In this document: in pieces, positions 520-8,911 of the stretch
Layout: each line of letters begins with the position of its first letter
How positions within the stretch are numbered: the stretch's first letter is position 1
Assembly (NCBI GenBank): GCA_964408945.1
Contig: CAYPBJ010000010.1
Location: 4,008 to 68,007 of the forward strand
DNA length: 64,000 bases
Direction of reading: 5' to 3'
Source: an uncultured Rhizobium sp.
Lineage (GTDB): Bacteria > Bacteroidota > Bacteroidia > NS11-12g > UBA955
Notes under the pieces: model-generated
Told to the model about the DNA's origin: nothing
What the model saw: the letters and a program-made list of their open reading frames with translations, nothing else
Database searches by the model: none
Translations under genes and position numbers: made by a program

Positions 520-1986
520 TTAAAATTGGTTGAGAGCCTCTAAATTGTTCAAATACAGTGTTTCAATAATTAAATAGCGCAAGGTAGCTTCGTACTTGGC
601 ATTCAAGAATGACTGGTAAGCTGAAACTTCGTTGTTTTTTGCCATTTGCATTTCAAAAACGGTTGCTTGTCCTAAATCCATTCTTTTTTGCACAAATTCT
701 AAGTTGCGTTTTTGTACTTCGTGGTTTTGTTCTGCGGCATCGTATTGAGCGCTGGCATTCTCAAAATTCTGAAAGGCCAAAGTCACCTCATTGACAATGC
801 TTTGTTTAAGTCGAAGCTGATTTAACTGAGCTTGAGTGACAGCTACTTGAGCGCGTTTTACCTGGCTATGGGTTTGCAATTGTCCAAATACAGGCACCGA
901 AAGTGTTGCACCAAATGCCTGTCCAAAGTTGTCTTTAATTTGATTGTTGAACTCAATGGTCTGAGCTTCGTAATTAAAAGTAGGAGCCTCAACAATGTCA
1001 CCTGACCCTCGAACAATACCAATGGGTTGAACACCCGTTATGGTGTAGCCCGAAATTCTCTTAGCATTATCGGAATAAATGGTACTTAAACTTCCACCCA
1101 AGGAAAGGGAAGGAGTGAACGCGCCTTTGGCAATTTTTACGCCAACTTCGGCAGCTTTTGCGCGATACATAGAACTTTGGTAATCTGCTCTTCTATTCAA
1201 GATGCTGTCAATCAAAGCGGAATTCAATTCAACTCCCATGGTTAAACTCGGAAGAGTGACGTCGTTGTCTGCAATTTCAAAGGGCTCATCAAACGGAATG
1301 ACCAACATTCCTTTTAAGTTTAAGAGCCTGTTTTTATATTGGTTTAAGGCTTGTGTTTCTTGCGATCTTGCGTTAAAGTATTGGGCACGGGCAGCAAGTA
1401 CAACGCCTTCATTTGAGGCACCAAGTGCCTGGAGCTTTTCGGTGCGTTTTAAGTCTTGTTGTAGGGCCTCAGAGTTCAATTTAGCAGCCTTAAGTTGTTC
1501 TCTGGCTTGCATGGTCTGCAAATAGGCGAGACTCACACTCAAAGCCATGTTTTGTTTGCTTTGAATTAAATCTAAGGTGCTGGCTTGATAATTGTATTTC
1601 GACTGTTTAACAGCATTTCTCAATTGACCGCCAGCAAATACCACCCAATTTCCTTGCAGTTGAAAGGAACTATTTCCTACGGTGGTTTGAACAAATTGAT
1701 TGGTAAATCGGTCAATGCTTCTTCCGCTCTGATAGTATTGTCCAATCGATCCGTTTATTGAGGGACTTAAATTCAGTCCAGATTGCTGCATTTCTATATT
1801 GGCAGATTCAACACCTGCCGCCGATAAAAGAATATCTGGATTGTTTTTCAGCGCAATTTCAACGCACTCAGAGAGGCGATATGATTTTTTCTCAGATTGA
1901 GCATGCAATGGGGAGATTAAAAAAATACTCCCAATTAAACATCCCCCGAAAAAAAGAAAACTTCGAGCAGAGTTTTGACCAAACAT
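520..1986 (-). CDS. TolC-family outer membrane efflux protein
   Basis: 488-490 aa with a signal peptide (LISPLHAQSE). It shows the two-repeat coiled-coil/beta pattern typical of the OEP/TolC family and sits directly upstream of an MFP gene. The track starts at GTG 1992. I prefer ATG 1986 because a TAccTTTG box ends at 1994. Confidence 0.85.
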   Translation of the reverse strand: MFGQNSARSFLFFGGCLIGSIFLISPLHAQSEKKSYRLSECVEIALKNNPDILLSAAGVESANIEMQQSGLNLSPSINGSIGQYYQSGRSIDRFTNQFVQTTVGNSSFQLQGNWVVFAGGQLRNAVKQSKYNYQASTLDLIQSKQNMALSVSLAYLQTMQAREQLKAAKLNSEALQQDLKRTEKLQALGASNEGVVLAARAQYFNARSQETQALNQYKNRLLNLKGMLVIPFDEPFEIADNDVTLPSLTMGVELNSALIDSILNRRADYQSSMYRAKAAEVGVKIAKGAFTPSLSLGGSLSTIYSDNAKRISGYTITGVQPIGIVRGSGDIVEAPTFNYEAQTIEFNNQIKDNFGQAFGATLSVPVFGQLQTHSQVKRAQVAVTQAQLNQLRLKQSIVNEVTLAFQNFENASAQYDAAEQNHEVQKRNLEFVQKRMDLGQATVFEMQMAKNNEVSAYQSFLNAKYEATLRYLIIETLYLNNLEALNQF

Positions 1987-1993
1987 AAACACA

Positions 1994-2001
1994 CAAAGGT
2001 A
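1994..2001 (-). promoter_or_regulatory. Bacteroidota-type -7 promoter box (TACCTTTG) for the TolC-MFP operon
   Basis: Plus strand reads caaaggta, so the reverse complement is TACCTTTG, an exact TAnnTTTG match. There are 7 nt between the final G and ATG 1986. Confidence 0.5.
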
Positions 2002-2102
2002 CCGGAATGTAGATAAACTTCGTTAAATCAATCGATAAGCCGCGTAATTCTTCGTTTAATTATGTGGAAAAGATGGGTATTGAATCTCAAACAAAAGGTA
2101 TT

Positions 2103-2110
2103 TATATTTG
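2103..2110 (+). promoter_or_regulatory. Bacteroidota-type -7 promoter box (TATATTTG) driving the cobalamin riboswitch leader
   Basis: Exact TAnnTTTG match at 2103-2110. A TTG at 2080-2082 lies 20 nt upstream and is a candidate -33 element. The riboswitch begins a few nt downstream. Confidence 0.5.
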
Positions 2111-2117
2111 CATCGAG

Positions 2118-2300
2118 TTCTGGTTTCCACAACCACAGGCTTGGAAGTGGAATTAAAATGGGAACATCGGTGAAAAACCGAGACTGTACCCGCAGCTGTA
2201 ACCTCACGCCGCAAGGCAAACGTTTAGGGCATCTGAGCCACTGTGAATAACGGGAAGGCGCGCTAAATGAGGAAGTCAGAAGACCTGCCGCACTCAAAAA
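2118..2300 (+). promoter_or_regulatory. Cobalamin (B12) riboswitch
   Basis: Conserved core strings are visible in the sequence: aaaatgGGAAcatcGGTGaAAAaCCgagaCtGtaCCCGCaGCTGTAA (about 2154-2201), GCCACTGtgaataacGGGAAGGCg (about 2237-2260), and the B12 box gAAGTCAGAAGACCTGCCg (about 2271-2290). It sits in the 5' leader of a btuB-like TonB-dependent receptor. Confidence 0.88.
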
Positions 2301-2327
2301 ACAATCCGCTTTCGGGAATAAAGGCGC

Positions 2328-4208
2328 ATGAGAAAGGTAGTTAATAATATCGCACTATGCTTTTTGCTGTTGTCTGCTGAACCAATTTCAGCAACCCATT
2401 CTTGCGTGTTTAATACCGAGGTCGACTCCGCTTTAAATACCTTATTATTACCGCCCCATGATGTTCCAAAGAACATACCAAAATCAGATACCGTCTTTGT
2501 AAATATTAAGAGAATTTCTTTTGCCCAAGTAGGAAGACTATCGCAAAATGTTCCAATCAACGAGCAAGGAGCGGTTTTGACTCAAGACCTTTCGCATTCC
2601 GGTGCATTTTTTAAACAATACGGAATTTCCGGTTCGGCTACCATCAGTAAACGAGGTGCCGATGCCACTCAAACACAGGTTCTTTGGAACGGACTTCCCA
2701 TCAATCATCCCATGTTGGGAATGACGGATTTTAATAATTTTAGCACCTTTGGACTATCGGAACTTACTTTTATTGACGGTGGAAACTCCTCTATGTACGG
2801 CAGTGGAAGTGTGGGCGGTACAGTTCTGATGAATCACGATGCAGAGTTTGATCAAGGAAAAAAAATGCAAGGAAGTCTCTCTTATGGAAGCTTCAATAAT
2901 GTGCAATGGGCTGGCATGCTTGGGTACTCGGGTGAAAAAGCCGTAGTTGTGTTTTCACATTCTCAGGTCCGTTTTAAAAATCAATTCACTTATTTTGATC
3001 GCGGATTTGATAAACTTCAAACGGCACAGAATGCTGAATTCATTCAAAAAAATTCTAGATTGCTCACATCCATTAAGGCAACTAGGCATAGCCAAACCAA
3101 ACTAGTGTTGGAATTGGCAAATATGGACCGTGGACTCGGAAGTCTAACCGGAAGTTATAATCTTTTAGGAAACCAAAAAGATCAATCAATCAGAGGTGTT
3201 TTAGAGCACAAATATCACAAGGGAAAATTTGCGTGGATTCAAAAATTTGGTGGTAGCCAAGATATTATTGTTTACACTCAAGCGGGAATTCAAGACAGCA
3301 GTCAAGCGCAGTTGAGATTCGCCATGACAGAGCTGTATTTTACGGTCAATTCTAAAACTCAAATATTGACGGGATTGGATTTTCAACAACAAATCGGCAA
3401 TACCCGCTATTATCAAATAACGCAAATCAGAAATTTACCAGCGCAATTCTTATCCATCAGAAAAAAACACAATAAAACAGATTGGCTAGCCAGCACCCGA
3501 TGGGAATGGAATGAAAGAATTCCATCAGCAGGTATAGGGCAAGAAACTCAATTGGGTAAAAATTGGTTGTTCAAATCTGACATCCACACTAGCTTCAGAA
3601 GAGCTACCTTAAATGATTTGTATTGGGCTCAACCGGGTAATGTGCATTTGAAAAGTGAAACGGGTTGGGAAGTAGAATCTGGTTTTGCCAATAGAGACAA
3701 AAAACTCAAATGGGAGCTTACCGCATTTTACAGAGAATTAAACAACCCTATAATTTGGCTACCCCAAGGAGGTTTATGGTCGGCAATAAATTACCATTTT
3801 GGTCGATATTACGGTTTGCAGGGAAGTATTCAAAATCAGTTTAAAAGTTTCTTTGGAAAAGTAACTGCTGATTGGGTTCGTACCGCGGTAAAAGTAAACG
3901 AGTCTAGCGATTTTCTTCAGCAAATTTTCATTCCTGATTTAATGTCTAATGCCCAAATAGGTTATAAATGGCAGCATTGGATTTTCTCATCCAATTGGTC
4001 ATATACTGGAAATAGATTCATTCAAACCGACAATGAAAAAGTCATGAAGGCATACCAACTATGGGCAGCTCAGGTGCAATACACGCCCAAACATAAATAC
4101 ACCTTCTCGCTAAACGCTCAAAATTTGTTGAATACAGTTTATGAAAACATGCCCGGAAGGCCCATGCCCGGCAGATCAATCCAAATACAAATGAACATAA
4201 AACTATAA
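2328..4208 (+). CDS. btuB: TonB-dependent outer membrane receptor, BtuB-like (cobalamin/corrinoid receptor)
   Basis: 626 aa with a signal peptide, a plug domain (GADATQTQVLWNGLPINHPMLGMTDFNNFS; IDGGNSSMYGSGSVGGTV) and a long beta-barrel region. The size matches BtuB-type small TBDTs. It lies directly behind a cobalamin riboswitch. Confidence 0.85.
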   Translation: MRKVVNNIALCFLLLSAEPISATHSCVFNTEVDSALNTLLLPPHDVPKNIPKSDTVFVNIKRISFAQVGRLSQNVPINEQGAVLTQDLSHSGAFFKQYGISGSATISKRGADATQTQVLWNGLPINHPMLGMTDFNNFSTFGLSELTFIDGGNSSMYGSGSVGGTVLMNHDAEFDQGKKMQGSLSYGSFNNVQWAGMLGYSGEKAVVVFSHSQVRFKNQFTYFDRGFDKLQTAQNAEFIQKNSRLLTSIKATRHSQTKLVLELANMDRGLGSLTGSYNLLGNQKDQSIRGVLEHKYHKGKFAWIQKFGGSQDIIVYTQAGIQDSSQAQLRFAMTELYFTVNSKTQILTGLDFQQQIGNTRYYQITQIRNLPAQFLSIRKKHNKTDWLASTRWEWNERIPSAGIGQETQLGKNWLFKSDIHTSFRRATLNDLYWAQPGNVHLKSETGWEVESGFANRDKKLKWELTAFYRELNNPIIWLPQGGLWSAINYHFGRYYGLQGSIQNQFKSFFGKVTADWVRTAVKVNESSDFLQQIFIPDLMSNAQIGYKWQHWIFSSNWSYTGNRFIQTDNEKVMKAYQLWAAQVQYTPKHKYTFSLNAQNLLNTVYENMPGRPMPGRSIQIQMNIKL

Positions 4209-4210
4209 TT

Positions 4211-5206
4211 ATGAAAATTAAAAATATCATTCTCAGTGCTTTTTTAAGCATCTCAACCATGGCTATCAAAGCTCAAACCCCAACGGTGCGCACCTGGGGA
4301 TTTGAAGAGTTTTACCAAAACGGACTAGACTCTGGGCAAGTTTGGGATGGTTCAGAAGGTAAAAAATCTATAATATTGGATATTCCTAACTTCTTCAACA
4401 TGGAATTGCTAACCGGTTGGGACACTTCATGGGGCGGATATTGGTCAAAAAACTGGGTGCTTACTGCAAAAGATTACAACACCGAAGAGCCTTCTGATTT
4501 TGCAAAACACATTTATTCGGTAAAGCCAGATATTGACAATGAAAATACAGGTCGAGTTCATGCTATTGGAAAATCTGGGGCATACATTCTCAATCGCCCT
4601 AAATACAAAGAATTTCAAGACATTGCCTACTTCAAGGTAGCAAATACCACTTTTGCCTACAACAGCATGAAGTTTGGCGACAATTTCGCCAAAAAATTCA
4701 CTCCAGCTGATTACGATACCTTTGTATTGTCAGTAAAAGTCTACAAAAAAGACTCTTTTATTGCAGAAAAAAGGGTTTACCTCGCTGATTTTAGACTTGG
4801 AATAAATAGTTATATAGCAAGCAATTGGATAGAAGTAATCATGCCACTCTCCGGCGATAGCATCACTTTCAATTTGGAAAGTTCTGACAACGGCGATTTT
4901 GGAATGAATACCCCCGCTTATTTCGCTTTAGATGAAATTACATTGATTGGGCCGGCGTCGGTTAAAAAAATACCTTCACAAAACGTTTTGGTTTATCCAA
5001 ATCCAGCTACAGATCAATTGAATTTTAAAAACATTCCTGTTTCTATTTCAAAGGCTTCTTGCATTGACGCTCTAGGCCGTAAACTCGAATTGACTTTGAA
5101 TCCCCAAGGTTCTGCCAATGTCAGCGATCTAAAATCAGGGATTTATTGGGTTGAATTGCAAGATATCAAAGGAGTTACTTACAGATCTTCTTTCATCAAG
5201 AATTAA
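4211..5206 (+). CDS. DUF4465-like secreted protein with T9SS C-terminal sorting domain
   Basis: 331 aa with a signal peptide (ISTMAIKAQT). The central region matches what I remember of the DUF4465 profile (GYWSKNWVL; VANTTFAYNSMKFGDNFAKKF; NTPAYFALDEI). The C-terminal ~80 aa look like a Por_Secre_tail (VLVYPNPATDQLNF...GIYWVELQDIKGVTYRSSFIKN). It starts 2 nt after the btuB-like gene. Confidence 0.75.
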   Translation: MKIKNIILSAFLSISTMAIKAQTPTVRTWGFEEFYQNGLDSGQVWDGSEGKKSIILDIPNFFNMELLTGWDTSWGGYWSKNWVLTAKDYNTEEPSDFAKHIYSVKPDIDNENTGRVHAIGKSGAYILNRPKYKEFQDIAYFKVANTTFAYNSMKFGDNFAKKFTPADYDTFVLSVKVYKKDSFIAEKRVYLADFRLGINSYIASNWIEVIMPLSGDSITFNLESSDNGDFGMNTPAYFALDEITLIGPASVKKIPSQNVLVYPNPATDQLNFKNIPVSISKASCIDALGRKLELTLNPQGSANVSDLKSGIYWVELQDIKGVTYRSSFIKN

Positions 5207-5208
5207 AC

Positions 5209-6258
5209 ATGAGATTTTTGGCTTTTTTTCTGGGGATATTTTTAGCTCTTGGAAGCCTGGTTACTTCGTGCACTCCCGAGGACAAACCTGCACCGTCACC
5301 TAAAAATATTCCCTTAGCCAAAGTTCTCATCTTGTGTGAAGGCAATTTCTTATGGGAAAACGCCCAACTCGATGTTTGGCTGCCAGATAGCCAAATCCTC
5401 ATTTCTAATGCCTACGAATTGCAGAATAACAAGCCATTGGGCGATGTTTTGCAGTCGGGATTGTACGCAAACGGTCGACTTTGGCTTTCAGTAAATAATT
5501 CAGGAAAAATTCTGGAGTTGGATCCTAAAACGCTGATCGAAACCAAAAAGAATATCAGTCCAAACTATCCGCGTTATATGGCATATTCTTTGGCATTTCA
5601 GTCGTTGTTTGTAACCGATTTGAAGAAAAATCGAGTTCGTGAATTGGATGCACAGAGTTTGATACTCAAGCACGAATATCCTGTCTTGCCTCAAAAAATG
5701 GGGGAGTTTTCGGGTTGGACAGAACACATCCTGGAATGGAATCAAAAAATAGTTGCCGCCAACTTAGACGGAAATATCCTCATCATGGATCCTGTTTTGA
5801 AAAGTCAAAAACTTATAAAAGTAGATTCGGGTGCCCAATATTTAGCTGTTGATAAACAAAATCAATTGTGGGTAGTATCCAGCAAAGCAAATGAGTCGAG
5901 TATAACGTTGGTTGATGCTGATGAGCCTCCAAAAGTTTATCGTTTAAATATGCCCATTCAACGCATTTCTTTGGGGGTAAACAAAGATACCTTGTGGGTT
6001 CTCAATCAAAATCGAGTTCATTTTATAGATTTAAAGAACACGTCCTCGGGCGTTATTTTGAATCAAGCATTTACAATAAAAGATGCTCAAAACATATATT
6101 CAATGGGGGTGCATCCTCAAACGGGAGAATTTTACCTCGGCGATGCTCGAGACTATGTGAGTGCAGGAAAAGTTTTCATTTATAGTGCTGATTTTAAGTA
6201 TATAAAAACTCTTGAGACTGGAGTCATTCCCACTGACTTTGTCTTTGTGGGGTTGTAA
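5209..6258 (+). CDS. Beta-propeller lipoprotein (YncE-like / DUF5074-like cell-surface protein)
   Basis: 349 aa with a lipoprotein signal (LALGSLVTSC) followed by TPEDK. Repeated blade-like segments are visible (ILCEGNF..., GRLWLSVNNSGKILELD, QSLFVTDLKKNRVRELD, NQLWVVSS, GEFYLGDARDY). It starts 2 nt after the DUF4465-like gene and ends the riboswitch-led cluster. Confidence 0.7.
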   Translation: MRFLAFFLGIFLALGSLVTSCTPEDKPAPSPKNIPLAKVLILCEGNFLWENAQLDVWLPDSQILISNAYELQNNKPLGDVLQSGLYANGRLWLSVNNSGKILELDPKTLIETKKNISPNYPRYMAYSLAFQSLFVTDLKKNRVRELDAQSLILKHEYPVLPQKMGEFSGWTEHILEWNQKIVAANLDGNILIMDPVLKSQKLIKVDSGAQYLAVDKQNQLWVVSSKANESSITLVDADEPPKVYRLNMPIQRISLGVNKDTLWVLNQNRVHFIDLKNTSSGVILNQAFTIKDAQNIYSMGVHPQTGEFYLGDARDYVSAGKVFIYSADFKYIKTLETGVIPTDFVFVGL

Positions 6259-6269
6259 AGTCTTAACCT

Positions 6270-6277
6270 TATCTTTG
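6270..6277 (+). promoter_or_regulatory. Bacteroidota-type -7 promoter box (TATCTTTG)
   Basis: Exact TAnnTTTG match, with 7 nt between the final G and ATG 6285 of the LptF/G-family gene. A TTG at 6245-6247 is a possible -33 element. Confidence 0.5.
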
Positions 6278-6284
6278 CAACCGC

Positions 6285-7733
6285 ATGTTGCGAATCAAGA
6301 ATATCGACAAACTGGTACTCCGATCTTATGTGGGTCCATTCATTGTCACTTTTGTACTGAGCTTATTTTTATTCTTGATGCAATTCCTTTGGAAGTACAT
6401 CGATGAGCTCGTTGGAAAAGGAATTCCAACAGGTGTCATGTTGAAATTGATTGGACTTTCATTAGCCGATTTGGTTCCGATGGCCCTTCCGCTAACGGTG
6501 ATGGTCGCTGCCCTGATGACGTTTGGTAACCTATCGGAGAGTTTTGAATTGGTAGCCATGAAAAGCAATGGAATTTCACTGCTCAGAATTTTGAGACCTA
6601 TCTTTATCTTCATGTCTATTTTGGTAGTTGCCAATTTCTTTTTCCTGAATTATATCATCCCTAAGGCCAATCTCGAATTCAAAGCGATGCTTTTAGATTT
6701 AAGGTCTAAAAAGCCCGCTTTCAACATTGAACCAGGGCAGTTTTATCAGCAAATTGATGGAGTAGCCATCAGGGTTGGAGAGAAAGAAGCTGACAACGAA
6801 ACGGTCAAAGACGTACTCATATACGAATACAAACAAGACGATAGTAAACGTTTAAACGTGATTAGAGCAAAACACGGAAAAATGGTGATGTCGCCCGATA
6901 AGCGTTTTCTCAATCTAACCCTATATAAGGGCGTTCGTTACGAAGAAATGACCTCGGCCGAAGACTATCGGAAAACCATGCCTTTCAACCAAATGTTTTT
7001 CGAAAAACAAAGCATGGTCATTGATTTATCAAGCCTGGATTTCACCTTTTCCAATCGCGAAAGAATGGCCACTGATTACAGATTGTTGAACGTAAAAAAA
7101 TTATTGCTAGAGATTGATTCATTCCACATGAGAATGGAAAAGCATAAAGACGACAATGCACAATATTTGAGCAGATTGATGCATTATCGAAACTTGTTTC
7201 CATCGCCCGTTCAAAATCAACCCCAAAATGCAATTAACAACTATATTGAGTTGAAAAAACCCAATATTTATCAAAATTTTGACTCATCACAATGGGCGTC
7301 GATGAGGTCTTTAGCCGTTTCCACGGCACGAGGAATGAAAGGCACTCTAGAAGGGTATGCTGCAACTCAAAAATATGAATATAAAGATGTTGCACTCTAT
7401 CAATCAGAATTACACAAGAAATTCTCTTATTCCTTTTTATTGATGATGCTCTTTCTCATCGCAGCACCTTTAGGCGCCATCATTCAAAAAGGGGGAATAG
7501 GTCTACCTTTGGTAATTTCCGTATTGCTTTTTGTGCTTTTTTACGCCATCAATATCACTGGTGAAAAAATGGGTAAGGAGTTGGTTTTTCCTGTTTGGTT
7601 TGGAATGTGGATGAGCACATTGGTGCTGCTTCCTATTGCCTTTGTTATTACATTTCAAGCTCTTAGAGATAGATCTACTGTGGGTGGCGGATTTTCATTC
7701 AAACGTTTATTCGTTAAAAAGACGTCCAAATGA
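6285..7733 (+). CDS. LptF/LptG-family (YjgP/YjgQ) LPS export permease
   Basis: 482 aa. The N-terminus reads LRSYVGPFIVTFVLSLFLFLMQFLWKYIDELVGKG. The layout is three N-terminal TM segments, a large central periplasmic domain and three C-terminal TM segments, as in LptF/G permeases. Confidence 0.8.
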   Translation: MLRIKNIDKLVLRSYVGPFIVTFVLSLFLFLMQFLWKYIDELVGKGIPTGVMLKLIGLSLADLVPMALPLTVMVAALMTFGNLSESFELVAMKSNGISLLRILRPIFIFMSILVVANFFFLNYIIPKANLEFKAMLLDLRSKKPAFNIEPGQFYQQIDGVAIRVGEKEADNETVKDVLIYEYKQDDSKRLNVIRAKHGKMVMSPDKRFLNLTLYKGVRYEEMTSAEDYRKTMPFNQMFFEKQSMVIDLSSLDFTFSNRERMATDYRLLNVKKLLLEIDSFHMRMEKHKDDNAQYLSRLMHYRNLFPSPVQNQPQNAINNYIELKKPNIYQNFDSSQWASMRSLAVSTARGMKGTLEGYAATQKYEYKDVALYQSELHKKFSYSFLLMMLFLIAAPLGAIIQKGGIGLPLVISVLLFVLFYAINITGEKMGKELVFPVWFGMWMSTLVLLPIAFVITFQALRDRSTVGGGFSFKRLFVKKTSK

Positions 7734-8911
7734 AGATTTTAGTCGTTGGAAATCGATTTCCCTGGCCCCTGCACGATGGCGGAGCCATTGCCTCCTACCG
7801 ATTGCTCAAGTCTTTGAGTAGTGCCGGACATGAAATCGTCTTTTTTTCCTTCAATACGGATAAACATCATGTATCATCAGAATCTATCCAAAAGGAATTT
7901 TCTTTTTGCAGAACCGTTTCCATTTCTTTGAACGCGGATGTTAAACCATTGGATGCGCTAAAAAATCTTTTTAAACCGAATAGCTATTTTATAGAGAGAT
8001 ACATTCAAAAAGAAGCCCAAACACAATTACAACTATTGGCTTCGAAAGAGAAATTTGATCTTGCGATTCTCGAAGGATTTTATTCTTCTGCATTTTTACC
8101 CGTATTGAAAGATCAAATACCCCTTATTTATAGAGCACATAATCTTGAATACCAAATTTGGAATCGATTAGCCGAAAATGAATCATCATGGCTCAAGCGA
8201 ACGTACTTGAAAATCCAAGTGAAACGCCTTAAAAAGGAGGAGATCAACCTACTTAATCATGTCAATGCAACCATTGCCATTTCACCCAATGATGCGTCTA
8301 TTTTCCAGCAATTAAGTCCCAAACCTGTACATCTCTATCTTCCCGGAGTGGAAATTCAAATCAACGGAAAGTCAAAGTTGCAGCCCCAAAGGTTGTTTCA
8401 TTTGGGTTCGATGGAATGGGATGCCAACCGGCAGGGTGTAGAATGGTTTTTGAGAAAAGTTTGGCCATTAGTATTGTCTGCACATCCAGATTTGACCTTT
8501 CATTTAGCCGGAAAAGGACTCAAAAAGAGCGATTCAAAATACTTTCAACAGGGGGTTATGAATCACGGTGAAGTCAATGATGCCCGAGAATTCATGCTCA
8601 ATCATGGAATTTGCATTGTACCCATTCTTGCGGGTTCTGGCATAAGAATGAAGCTTTTGGATGCCATGAATTTTGGAATTCCTTGTGTTGCGACAAGCAT
8701 TGGTGCACAAGGTCTAAAGGTTGAATCGGGCAATCAATTGGAAATTGCAGATAATCCCAAAGACTTTGCAGCAAAAATCATAGGACTCTTGAATGACCGA
8801 TTGAAAGCCATTCAAATGGGCAAAAATGCCGCCGCTTATATTCAAGAAAATCACAATCCAGTCATCAATTTCGATAAACTGAATCAATTTATAGTATCCG
8901 TTAGATTATAA
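7730..8911 (+). CDS. Glycosyltransferase, GT4 (GT-B fold) family
   Basis: 393 aa. The N-terminus MKILVVGNRFPWPLHDGGA and the C-terminal half (ICIVPILAGSGIRMKLLDAMNFGIPCVATSIG) are typical of GT4 enzymes. Its ATGA start overlaps the upstream stop. Confidence 0.75.
   Translation: MKILVVGNRFPWPLHDGGAIASYRLLKSLSSAGHEIVFFSFNTDKHHVSSESIQKEFSFCRTVSISLNADVKPLDALKNLFKPNSYFIERYIQKEAQTQLQLLASKEKFDLAILEGFYSSAFLPVLKDQIPLIYRAHNLEYQIWNRLAENESSWLKRTYLKIQVKRLKKEEINLLNHVNATIAISPNDASIFQQLSPKPVHLYLPGVEIQINGKSKLQPQRLFHLGSMEWDANRQGVEWFLRKVWPLVLSAHPDLTFHLAGKGLKKSDSKYFQQGVMNHGEVNDAREFMLNHGICIVPILAGSGIRMKLLDAMNFGIPCVATSIGAQGLKVESGNQLEIADNPKDFAAKIIGLLNDRLKAIQMGKNAAAYIQENHNPVINFDKLNQFIVSVRL

What the first reader, a model, noticed from the sequence alone, without database searches (positions are those of the whole stretch)
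4211..5206. The DUF4465-like protein is T9SS cargo rather than a lipoprotein
Seen in the sequence: the protein has a type I signal peptide (ISTMAIKAQT) with no lipobox Cys. It ends in a Por_Secre_tail-like segment (VLVYPNPATDQLNF ... GIYWVELQDIKGVTYRSSFIKN). Established knowledge: T9SS C-terminal domains direct cargo across the outer membrane, where it is either released or covalently anchored to anionic LPS. Inference: the putative corrinoid-binding module may be exported by the T9SS. It could act as a released scavenger (a corrinophore-like protein) or as a surface-tethered trap. Either would be a different delivery route from the lipoprotein-based Bacteroides systems.
Basis: partly seen in the sequence, partly recalled or inferred. 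Interest (0 to 1): 0.6.

Follow-up and report, generated by a model that had tools for sequence, protein, structure and literature searches.

The report
T9SS-exported BtuJ-type vitamin B12 binder
This gene encodes a vitamin-B12-capturing protein of a recently characterised family (BtuJ/DUF4465) that carries a type IX secretion tail instead of the lipid anchor of its studied gut relatives. This is a widespread variant that the B12-uptake papers I could search do not mention.

Summary
ORF 4211-5206 (331 aa) has a Cys-free type I signal peptide. It has a DUF4465 domain (PF14717, 88.5 bits). Its extreme C-terminus is a type-A T9SS sorting domain that passes both curated cut-offs (PF18962 37.5/27; TIGR04183 35.3/23).

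DUF4465 is now the BtuJ family of high-affinity B12 binders. The AlphaFold model's nine best PDB matches are all BtuJ/DUF4465 structures, and the B12-contacting NTPAYF loop is present.

The gene is the middle gene of a three-gene cassette: cobalamin riboswitch (the genome's only one), BtuB-like receptor, BtuJ-CTD, BtuG-like lipoprotein. The genome encodes SprA, GldKLMN, PorV, PorU, PorZ and PorP, and about 70 other CTD proteins. It has MetH but no detectable MetE or CbiF, so it probably depends on imported B12.

Whether the protein is released or tethered stays open; I lean slightly to tethered.

The architecture is not rare. 119 of the 120 best metagenome homologues are annotated with the tail, and 12 of 12 such loci have the riboswitch. 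Nine of the 16 DUF4465-positive genomes in a 401-genome phylum sample have it. Outside Bacteroidota the domain ends in PEP-CTERM instead.

This scan has already noted T9SS-tailed BtuJ in other genomes. No paper I could search mentions it.

Verdict: new variant of a known kind, moderate interest.

The parts
2103..2306 (+). Cobalamin riboswitch aptamer, leader of the cassette
   Evidence: RF00174, 86.6 bits (gathering 31.5), full model 1-189. It is the only RF00174 match in the 2.43 Mb genome.
2328..4208 (+). BtuB-like TonB-dependent receptor (626 aa)
   Evidence: Plug and TonB_dep_Rec_b-barrel pass the Pfam cut-offs. The best NCBIfam hit is TonB-B12 TIGR01779 at 79.6 bits, far below its equivalog cut-off of 599.7. 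The best PDB sequence matches are Bacteroides BtuB chains 8p97_A, 8bmx_C and 8p98_A, E about 3e-23. Its stop codon lies 2 nt before the BtuJ start.
4211..4273 (+). Type I (SPI) signal peptide, residues 1-21, no lipobox
   Evidence: Read directly from the sequence. Q22 is invariant in 40 homologues. pLDDT is below 50 for residues 1-21.
4274..4960 (+). BtuJ/DUF4465 augmented beta-jelly-roll, predicted B12-binding module (residues 22-250)
   Evidence: PF14717 scores 88.5 bits. PDB sequence hits are 9qpm/9fct (BtuJ1), 4jqr, 9hmu and 9i2l. The nine best Foldseek hits are all BtuJ/DUF4465 structures, TM (target) 0.60-0.74. The NTPAYF motif is at residues 233-238.
4991..5203 (+). T9SS type-A C-terminal sorting domain (residues 261-331)
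   Evidence: PF18962 scores 37.5/27 and TIGR04183 35.3/23, full length. My own-genome CTD HMM gives 36.6 bits. The model shows an all-beta module after a low-confidence linker at 251-253. P263, N264, P265, G310 and Y312 are invariant in 40 homologues.
5209..6258 (+). BtuG-like beta-propeller surface lipoprotein (349 aa)
   Evidence: DUF5074 PF16819 scores 29.0 bits (cut-off 27.2). PDB hits include chains from the same entries as the BtuB-like matches (8bmx_D, 8p97_B), plus 8bmy, 8bn0 and 3dsm, E 1e-18 to 2e-14. The N-terminus ends LVTS-C20 (a lipobox), followed by TPEDK, an acidic patch as in Bacteroidota lipoprotein export signals (sequence; the export-signal comparison is from my own knowledge).

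Best explanation
The gene encodes a BtuJ-type extracellular vitamin-B12 (corrinoid) binder that reaches the cell exterior through the type IX secretion system instead of the lipoprotein export route. The proposed mechanism has five steps. (1) When intracellular B12 is low, the riboswitch lets the three-gene cassette btuB-btuJ-btuG be expressed (inferred from the riboswitch family). (2) The precursor crosses the inner membrane by Sec and signal peptidase I cuts after A21 (inferred from sequence). (3) The folded jelly-roll is recognised through its type-A CTD and passed through the SprA translocon with PorV (inferred from family membership and the presence of the machinery). (4) PorU removes the CTD. 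With PorZ present, the new C-terminus is most likely linked to anionic LPS, so that the binder decorates the cell surface. I give about 60:40 for tethered over released. (5) The binder captures scarce corrinoids from lake water and hands them to the BtuG lid on BtuB for TonB-driven import, as BtuJ1 does for BtuG in B. thetaiotaomicron. A BtuF/BtuC-like system elsewhere in the genome would take B12 onward to feed MetH. Shown here are the domain identities, the operon, the riboswitch, the T9SS gene set and the B12-dependence markers. Binding, secretion, anchoring and hand-over are inferred.
For: Domain calls are above curated cut-offs. The fold matches BtuJ1, BtuJ2 and D5EK51. The HI-loop NTPAYF motif is present; that loop's Tyr is kept in 97% of the family (PMC13398666; sequence). 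Eight diverse DUF4465 proteins bind B12. The genome's only riboswitch leads the cassette. BtuB- and BtuG-like genes flank the gene. The T9SS set is complete: SprA 2247 bits, GldK 526, GldL/M/N and PorP, PorV 452, PorU 838, PorZ 493, and about 70 CTD proteins are encoded. MetH is present while MetE and CbiF are not detected in a 97%-complete genome. The same riboswitch plus CTD-tailed BtuJ arrangement is found in 12 of 12 related loci tested. 119 of the 120 best homologues are annotated with both domains. BtuJ1 is surface-exposed and passes B12 to locus-2 proteins (preprint 10.1101/2025.07.01.662609; PMC13616437). In P. gingivalis T9SS cargo is conjugated to A-LPS (PMC12094164).
Against: There is no experimental datum for this protein or any CTD-tailed BtuJ that I could verify. 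The residue aligned with BtuJ1 Tyr146 (DE helix) is Phe148, so one hydrogen bond may be lost. F and Y alternate at this position in the clade and Y150 is conserved. The receptor scores far below the BtuB equivalog cut-offs. From my own knowledge, many type-A CTD proteins in Flavobacterium are released rather than anchored, so step 4 is weak. Absence of MetE and CbiF rests on a draft genome.
Confidence: 0.78

Rival explanations
1. Released corrinophore. After T9SS export and CTD cleavage the binder is shed into the medium as a soluble protein. It binds B12 at a distance and is recaptured by BtuG/BtuB, like a hemophore or siderophore.
For: The linker between jelly-roll and CTD is short, residues 247-260. 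B. thetaiotaomicron also spreads BtuJ away from the cell, on vesicles (PMC13398666).
Against: PorU, PorV and PorZ, the components of the attachment complex, are all present. A diffusible 25 kDa protein is an expensive public good for a 2.4 Mb planktonic freshwater cell in dilute water (inference). No recapture receptor other than BtuG is evident in the cassette. The word 'corrinophore' occurs in no paper of the library.
Confidence: 0.27
2. Periplasmic binder. The C-terminal domain is a decayed or non-functional tail and the protein stays in the periplasm. This is what the published survey implies for non-lipoprotein DUF4465 members ('periplasmic targeting signals').
For: PMC13398666 describes the roughly 30% of non-lipoprotein members this way. 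The genome does have a separate BtuF-like gene, so periplasmic B12 handling exists.
Against: The tail matches the full length of TIGR04183 above its cut-off. Its key residues are invariant across 40 homologues that share only 34-87% identity overall, which indicates purifying selection on the tail. All nine CTD-type genomes in my sample have SprA. Outside Bacteroidota the same position holds a PEP-CTERM surface-sorting signal: 8 of 9 pass TIGR02595.
Confidence: 0.04
3. The jelly-roll binds something other than corrinoids (for example another tetrapyrrole or a glycan), and the operon context is coincidental.
For: Phe replaces BtuJ1 Tyr146. The N-terminal WX/YA loops of the pocket vary widely in the family (PMC13398666). 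Weak fold resemblance to CBM-type jelly-rolls appears far down the Foldseek list.
Against: The riboswitch, BtuB and BtuG context is conserved in 12 of 12 related loci. NTPAYF is retained. All eight family members tested bind B12, down to 16% identity.
Confidence: 0.05

Closest known systems
BtuJ1 (BT1491) and BtuJ2 (BT1957) of Bacteroides thetaiotaomicron; PDB 9FCT/9QPM and 9I2L
   Same: Same Pfam family (PF14717) and same augmented beta-jelly-roll fold (Foldseek E 3e-14 to 8e-12). The HI-loop NTP(A/S)YF B12-contact motif is conserved. Both are encoded in cobalamin-riboswitch loci with btuB and btuG. The predicted role is extracellular B12 capture that feeds BtuG-BtuB.
   Different: BtuJ1 and BtuJ2 are SPII lipoproteins with a lipoprotein export signal and are found on the surface and on vesicles. 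This protein has an SPI signal, no Cys, and a 71-residue T9SS type-A CTD. Sequence identity is only 17-25%. Phe stands at the position of BtuJ1 Tyr146.
D5EK51 of Coraliomargarita akajimensis (PDB 9HMU) and the other DUF4465 proteins tested in PMC13398666, including 'Fluta' F2I9N3 of Fluviicola taffensis
   Same: These are environmental, non-gut DUF4465 proteins that bind B12. The sequence match covers residues 74-246.
   Different: That paper sorts the family into lipoproteins and 'periplasmic' signal-peptide proteins and never mentions C-terminal sorting signals. I could not establish whether Fluta carries a CTD. Crocinitomicaceae MAG homologues L014 and L015 do.
T9SS type-A cargo of Porphyromonas gingivalis (for example gingipains), which PorU, PorV and PorZ attach to A-LPS
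   Same: N-terminal Sec signal plus a C-terminal Por_Secre_tail domain. SprA/Sov, PorK-N, PorV, PorU and PorZ homologues are all encoded in this genome.
   Different: The cargo here is a small vitamin binder under riboswitch control, not a protease or adhesin. Anchoring chemistry in this lineage is untested.
PEP-CTERM-tailed DUF4465 proteins of Pseudomonadota, Verrucomicrobiota, Kiritimatiellota and Planctomycetota
   Same: The same B12-binding domain is followed directly by a lineage-specific C-terminal surface-sorting signal.
   Different: They use the exosortase/PEP-CTERM system, not the T9SS, and often have different neighbours.

Membership tests
DUF4465 / BtuJ (PF14717, IPR027828) | Match to the family HMM above the gathering score | tested here: met
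   88.5 bits against 25, profile positions 2-176 of 176. The whole-genome scan gives 90.4 bits.
DUF4465 / BtuJ (PF14717, IPR027828) | Augmented beta-jelly-roll fold | tested here: met
   AF2 model with mean pLDDT 81.7. Foldseek ranks 1-9 are all BtuJ/DUF4465 structures, probability 1.00, TM (target) 0.60-0.74.
DUF4465 / BtuJ (PF14717, IPR027828) | HI-loop motif (G/N)TPAY(F) with the B12-binding Tyr (BtuJ1 Y245) | tested here: met
   N233-T-P-A-Y237-F238 aligns with BtuJ1 N241-T-P-S-Y245-F. N233, P235 and F238 are invariant in 40 homologues.
DUF4465 / BtuJ (PF14717, IPR027828) | DE-helix Tyr (BtuJ1 Y146) | tested here: not met
   The aligned residue is F148 (TTFAY against TTYDY). The position is F or Y across the clade and W in 4JQR. 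It remains aromatic but loses the hydroxyl.
DUF4465 / BtuJ (PF14717, IPR027828) | Binds cobalamin or cobamides | not testable with these tools
   Needs recombinant protein and UV-visible, ITC or SPR measurement.
DUF4465 / BtuJ (PF14717, IPR027828) | Encoded in a riboswitch-controlled B12 transport locus | tested here: met
   RF00174 at 2103-2306, then BtuB-like, this gene, and BtuG-like. 12 of 12 related loci also carry the riboswitch.
T9SS type-A CTD cargo (TIGR04183 / PF18962) | C-terminal sorting domain above the curated cut-off, at the extreme C-terminus | tested here: met
   TIGR04183 35.3/23 over residues 261-331 of 331. PF18962 37.5/27. My own-genome CTD HMM gives 36.6 bits.
T9SS type-A CTD cargo (TIGR04183 / PF18962) | N-terminal Sec (SPI) signal peptide | tested here: met
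   Assessed by inspection only, since no SignalP is available. The N-terminus is MKIKN followed by a hydrophobic core and IKA|Q. Q at +1 is invariant in 40 of 40 homologues.
T9SS type-A CTD cargo (TIGR04183 / PF18962) | T9SS core and attachment genes in the same genome | tested here: met
   SprA, GldK, GldL, GldM, GldN, PorP, PorV, PorU and PorZ are all over their cut-offs.
T9SS type-A CTD cargo (TIGR04183 / PF18962) | Secretion depends on the T9SS and the CTD is cleaved by PorU | not testable with these tools
   Needs mutants and proteomics.
Bacteroides-type surface lipoprotein BtuJ (SPII plus lipoprotein export signal) | Lipobox Cys at the end of the signal peptide | tested here: not met
   There is no Cys in residues 1-282. 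No lipobox Cys appears in the signal-peptide columns of any of the 40 aligned homologues. True lipobox forms look different (SSCQKDE in Paludibacter, FSCEDEE in Rikenellaceae).
BtuG (DUF5074) for the downstream gene 5209-6258 | Homology to solved BtuG propellers, and a lipobox | tested here: met
   8bmx_D at E 1e-18 and eight further chains of the same kind. PF16819 scores 29.0/27.2. The lipobox is LVTSC.
BtuB equivalog (TIGR01779 / NF007926) for the upstream gene 2328-4208 | Score above the equivalog cut-off | tested here: not met
   79.6 against 599.7 and 42.2 against 836. It is nevertheless the best-scoring family, and the best PDB matches are Bacteroides BtuB. It works like BtuB but is not a member of the proteobacterial equivalog.

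The most novel reading that the evidence does not exclude
The T9SS-tailed BtuJ is shed as a free, soluble B12-scavenging protein (a 'corrinophore'). It captures corrinoids away from the cell and is recaptured at BtuG-BtuB. That would be a protein-based, diffusible vitamin-scavenging strategy in freshwater and marine Bacteroidota, analogous to hemophores. More broadly, DUF4465 would be a universal outward-facing B12 trap that each phylum has fused to its own surface-sorting signal: a lipobox, the T9SS CTD or PEP-CTERM.
Probability: 0.25. Interest if true: 0.7.

Novelty: new variant of a known kind. Interest (0 to 1): 0.42.

Why it matters
B12 is made by few microbes and needed by most, so how cells capture it shapes aquatic and gut communities. 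All mechanistic work on accessory B12 binders (BtuG, BtuH, BtuJ) comes from gut Bacteroides, where they are surface lipoproteins.

In T9SS-bearing Bacteroidota the BtuJ module is routed through a different export machine. In other phyla it is routed through exosortase/PEP-CTERM. This corrects the published reading that non-lipoprotein DUF4465 proteins are periplasmic.

It also adds a nutrient-vitamin role, under riboswitch control, to the T9SS cargo list. And it gives a simple, testable model of tethered versus released binder for B12 economics in dilute waters. The finding is incremental rather than surprising, because the domain, the secretion signal and the locus type are each well known.

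Tried and rejected
1. I tried to establish whether the experimentally tested Fluviicola taffensis protein F2I9N3 ('Fluta') carries a CTD. Unresolved.

2. I tested the idea that the choice of lipobox or CTD simply follows presence or absence of a T9SS. It fails as a strict rule. All CTD-type genomes have SprA, but two of three lipobox-type genomes (G299, G243) have SprA too.

3. I asked whether the CTD form arose several times. The domain tree shows sorting labels strongly clustered (9 changes against 28.7 in shuffles), with CTD forms in at least two well-supported clades. The backbone is unresolved and a single origin is not excluded. No claim is made.

4. Pfam search found nothing beyond DUF4465 or the CTD for three things: the odd C-terminal tails of G075 and G119, the Desulfobacterales and Sedimentisphaerales tails, and the 'GADFAVFEN' partner protein.

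5. The sigma-70 promoter and terminator scan of 1900-7900 gave no more sites than shuffles and was not used.

6. Slips: sent too much sequence, one search used a wrong argument, and one search used a bad word character.

Full report
**Observation.** The ORF at 4211-5206 (+) encodes 331 residues. Its N-terminus (MKIKNIILSAFLSISTMAIKA|QTPTV) is a classical type I signal peptide. The first Cys of the protein is C283, inside the C-terminal domain, so there is no lipobox. Pfam finds DUF4465 (PF14717, 88.5 bits, cut-off 25, residues 73-243). It also finds Por_Secre_tail (PF18962, 37.5 bits, cut-off 27, residues 261-324). I also built an HMM from 54 other CTDs of the same genome. It hits the tail at 36.6 bits, E 9e-12. 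In the whole-genome TIGR04183 scan the tail ranks about 35th of 71 matches.

**What the N-terminal module is.** DUF4465 is no longer of unknown function. It is the BtuJ family. BtuJ1 (BT1491) and BtuJ2 (BT1957) of Bacteroides thetaiotaomicron are high-affinity surface and vesicle B12 binders. Clarke et al. 2026 (PMC13398666) showed B12 binding for eight members with as little as 16% identity. The window protein matches the PDB sequences of BtuJ1 (9FCT/9QPM), 4JQR, D5EK51 (9HMU) and BtuJ2 (9I2L). An AlphaFold2 model built on 40 homologues has mean pLDDT 81.7. It shows two beta domains separated by a low-confidence linker at residues 251-253. The nine best Foldseek matches in the PDB are all BtuJ/DUF4465 structures, with TM-scores of 0.60-0.74 on the target. 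The HI loop that holds the most conserved B12-contacting Tyr (GTPAYF/NTPAY; Tyr in 97% of the family) reads NTPAYF at residues 233-238. One caveat: the residue aligned with the second conserved Tyr (BtuJ1 Y146, DE helix) is Phe148. Across the clade this position alternates between F and Y, and Y150 next to it is conserved.

**Context.**
- A cobalamin riboswitch (RF00174, 86.6 bits, full length) lies at 2103-2306. It is the only one in the 2.43 Mb, 97%-complete genome.
- Next comes a TonB-dependent receptor at 2328-4208. Its best family is TonB-B12 (well below the equivalog cut-off). Its best PDB matches are the Bacteroides BtuB chains solved with BtuG.
- The BtuJ-CTD gene starts 2 nt after the receptor's stop codon.
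- Then comes a BtuG homologue at 5209-6258. It matches DUF5074 and the BtuG-type propellers 8BMX, 8BMY and 8BN0 at E about 1e-18. It does have a lipobox (LVTS-C), followed by an acidic patch.
- The next genes are LptF/G, a glycosyltransferase and an MsbA-like ABC transporter.

So the cassette spans 2103-6258 and uses both export routes side by side: BtuG as a lipoprotein and BtuJ as T9SS cargo.

**The genome.**
- T9SS: SprA scores 2247 bits, GldK 526, PorV 452, PorU 838 and PorZ 493. GldL, GldM, GldN and a PorP/SprF gene lie next to gldK. All are above curated cut-offs.
- B12 economy: MetH is present, in two pieces. No MetE and no CbiF/CobM were detected.
- There is one DUF4465 gene and one BtuF-like plus BtuC-like gene pair on another contig.

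The organism therefore very probably depends on imported corrinoid, and this cassette is its only riboswitch-controlled uptake locus.

**How general the arrangement is.**
- The word-indexed protein search found 1257 homologues at E <= 1e-3. Of the best 120, 119 are annotated with PF18962 plus PF14717. The one exception, P0006, also shows the YPNP...FIKN tail in the alignment.
- In 40 aligned homologues (34-87% identical) the Gln after the signal peptide and the PNP and G.Y positions of the tail are invariant. This argues that the tail is under selection.
- Among 49 loci from species-representative genomes, my CTD HMM hits the DUF4465 ORF in 20. One more, L010, shows the start of the tail (YPNPVVD) at the end of its ORF. 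These 21 are mostly MAGs labelled Flavobacteriales, Crocinitomicaceae, Saprospiraceae, Cytophagales or unclassified Bacteroidota.
- Paludibacter and Rikenellaceae copies have lipoboxes instead.
- In 12 of 12 CTD-type loci tested, a cobalamin riboswitch lies upstream on the same strand. It sits either before the receptor, as here, or directly before the BtuJ-CTD gene.
- In an even sample of 401 genomes of the phylum, 16 had a DUF4465 match. Nine are CTD type (including this genome) and three are lipobox type. Two have an SPI signal with an unrecognised tail, and two are marginal hits.
- All CTD-type genomes have SprA. So do two of the three lipobox-type genomes, so the signal type is not dictated by T9SS presence alone.
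- Outside Bacteroidota the domain is followed by a PEP-CTERM signal in Pseudomonadota, Verrucomicrobiota, Kiritimatiellota and Planctomycetota. Eight of nine pass the TIGR02595 cut-off.
- A domain tree shows the sorting labels strongly clustered, but its backbone is unresolved.

**Mechanism.** My best-supported reading is as follows. The cassette is expressed when B12 is low. The protein is exported by Sec and cut by signal peptidase I. The T9SS then translocates it and PorU removes the CTD. The binder is then either attached to anionic LPS through the PorU/PorV/PorZ complex or released. It captures corrinoid outside the cell and hands it to BtuG-BtuB.

Hand-over from BtuJ1 to locus-2 surface proteins, and the stable BtuB-BtuG complex, are published for B. 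thetaiotaomicron. A-LPS conjugation of T9SS cargo is published for P. gingivalis. I favour tethering by about 60:40. The attachment-complex genes are present, and a diffusible protein is a costly public good for a small planktonic cell. Sequence cannot settle this point.

**Literature and earlier scan notes.** None of the papers that mention DUF4465 or BtuJ mentions the T9SS, and no paper in the library combines these topics. PMC13398666 describes the non-lipoprotein members as 'bearing periplasmic targeting signals'. The data here suggest that many of them instead carry C-terminal surface-sorting signals. This scan has already noted T9SS-tailed BtuJ proteins in other genomes, and PEP-CTERM-tailed ones too. 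My results agree with those notes and were obtained independently of them.

**Verdict.** It is a new variant of a known kind: a known binder, a known secretion signal and a known locus type, in a combination that is widespread and auto-annotated but not discussed in print. Interest is moderate.

Noticed in passing
window 2801-4000 and 5601-6400, compared with L002:1793-12993: Against the closest relative (L002), the flanks and the BtuJ gene are 90-98% identical in DNA. Segments inside the receptor barrel and inside the BtuG-like gene drop to 67-81%. At protein level the values are TBDR 79%, BtuJ 96%, BtuG 73% and downstream LptF/G 98%. This looks like recombination or diversifying selection on the surface-exposed BtuB and BtuG parts. 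Phage or bacteriocin receptor pressure, or corrinoid specificity, are possible causes.
   Followed up: partly
L004:4078-6738: In this close relative the receptor and the DUF4465-CTD protein lie in one open frame of 886 codons with no stop between them. This is either a lost stop codon, giving a fusion, or an assembly error. The record is labelled 'uncultured Rhizobium sp.' but is clearly of Bacteroidota type.
   Followed up: no
L025, L030-L035, L041, L044, L047-L050: DUF4465 proteins of Pseudomonadota, Verrucomicrobiota, Kiritimatiellota and Planctomycetota end in a PEP-CTERM sorting signal. Eight of nine tested pass the TIGR02595 cut-off. The published family survey calls such members periplasmic.
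   Followed up: partly
L053 (ORF from aa offset 762, + strand), L057, L061; L028/L049 residues about 60-330; L017 and L036 N-termini: A second conserved secreted module, with motifs such as 'PQAG..GSTAI' and 'GADFAVFEN', recurs with DUF4465. It is encoded next to the DUF4465-CTD gene in three phylum-sample genomes and carries its own T9SS tail there. It lies in the same open frame upstream of DUF4465 in Aquabacterium and in giant Pirellulaceae proteins. Pfam recognises only its CTD. It is a candidate further B12-locus accessory family. It is absent from the window's cassette.
   Followed up: partly
L059/L068 (G075) and L065 (G119): These DUF4465 proteins have an SPI signal and a short unrecognised C-terminal tail (...K.(L/M).NGQ(I/L)(I/V)I(V/I)R.G..YT..GQ...). 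One of them has two tandem DUF4465 domains. Both genomes have SprA. The tail may be a divergent sorting signal.
   Followed up: no
L018, L019, L043, L046 (Desulfobacterales); L022, L029, L038, L042 (Sedimentisphaerales/Phycisphaerae): Other lineage-specific C-terminal endings follow DUF4465. One is a Cys followed by a hydrophobic helix and KREKNE. Others are 'GGGCFIDSVR' and '...PCLDN'. None is recognised by Pfam in the two I tested, L018 and L042.
   Followed up: no
own genome, C25:26124-27098 and C8:51844-54432: MetH is split. A 334-aa frame matches model positions 1-323 and a 901-aa frame on another contig matches positions 319-1181.
   Followed up: no
L002, L004, L037 record titles: The MAG records that hold these Bacteroidota-type cassettes are titled 'Chitinophaga pinensis', 'uncultured Rhizobium sp.' and 'Lentimonas sp.'. 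These are probably mislabelled or mis-binned.
   Followed up: no
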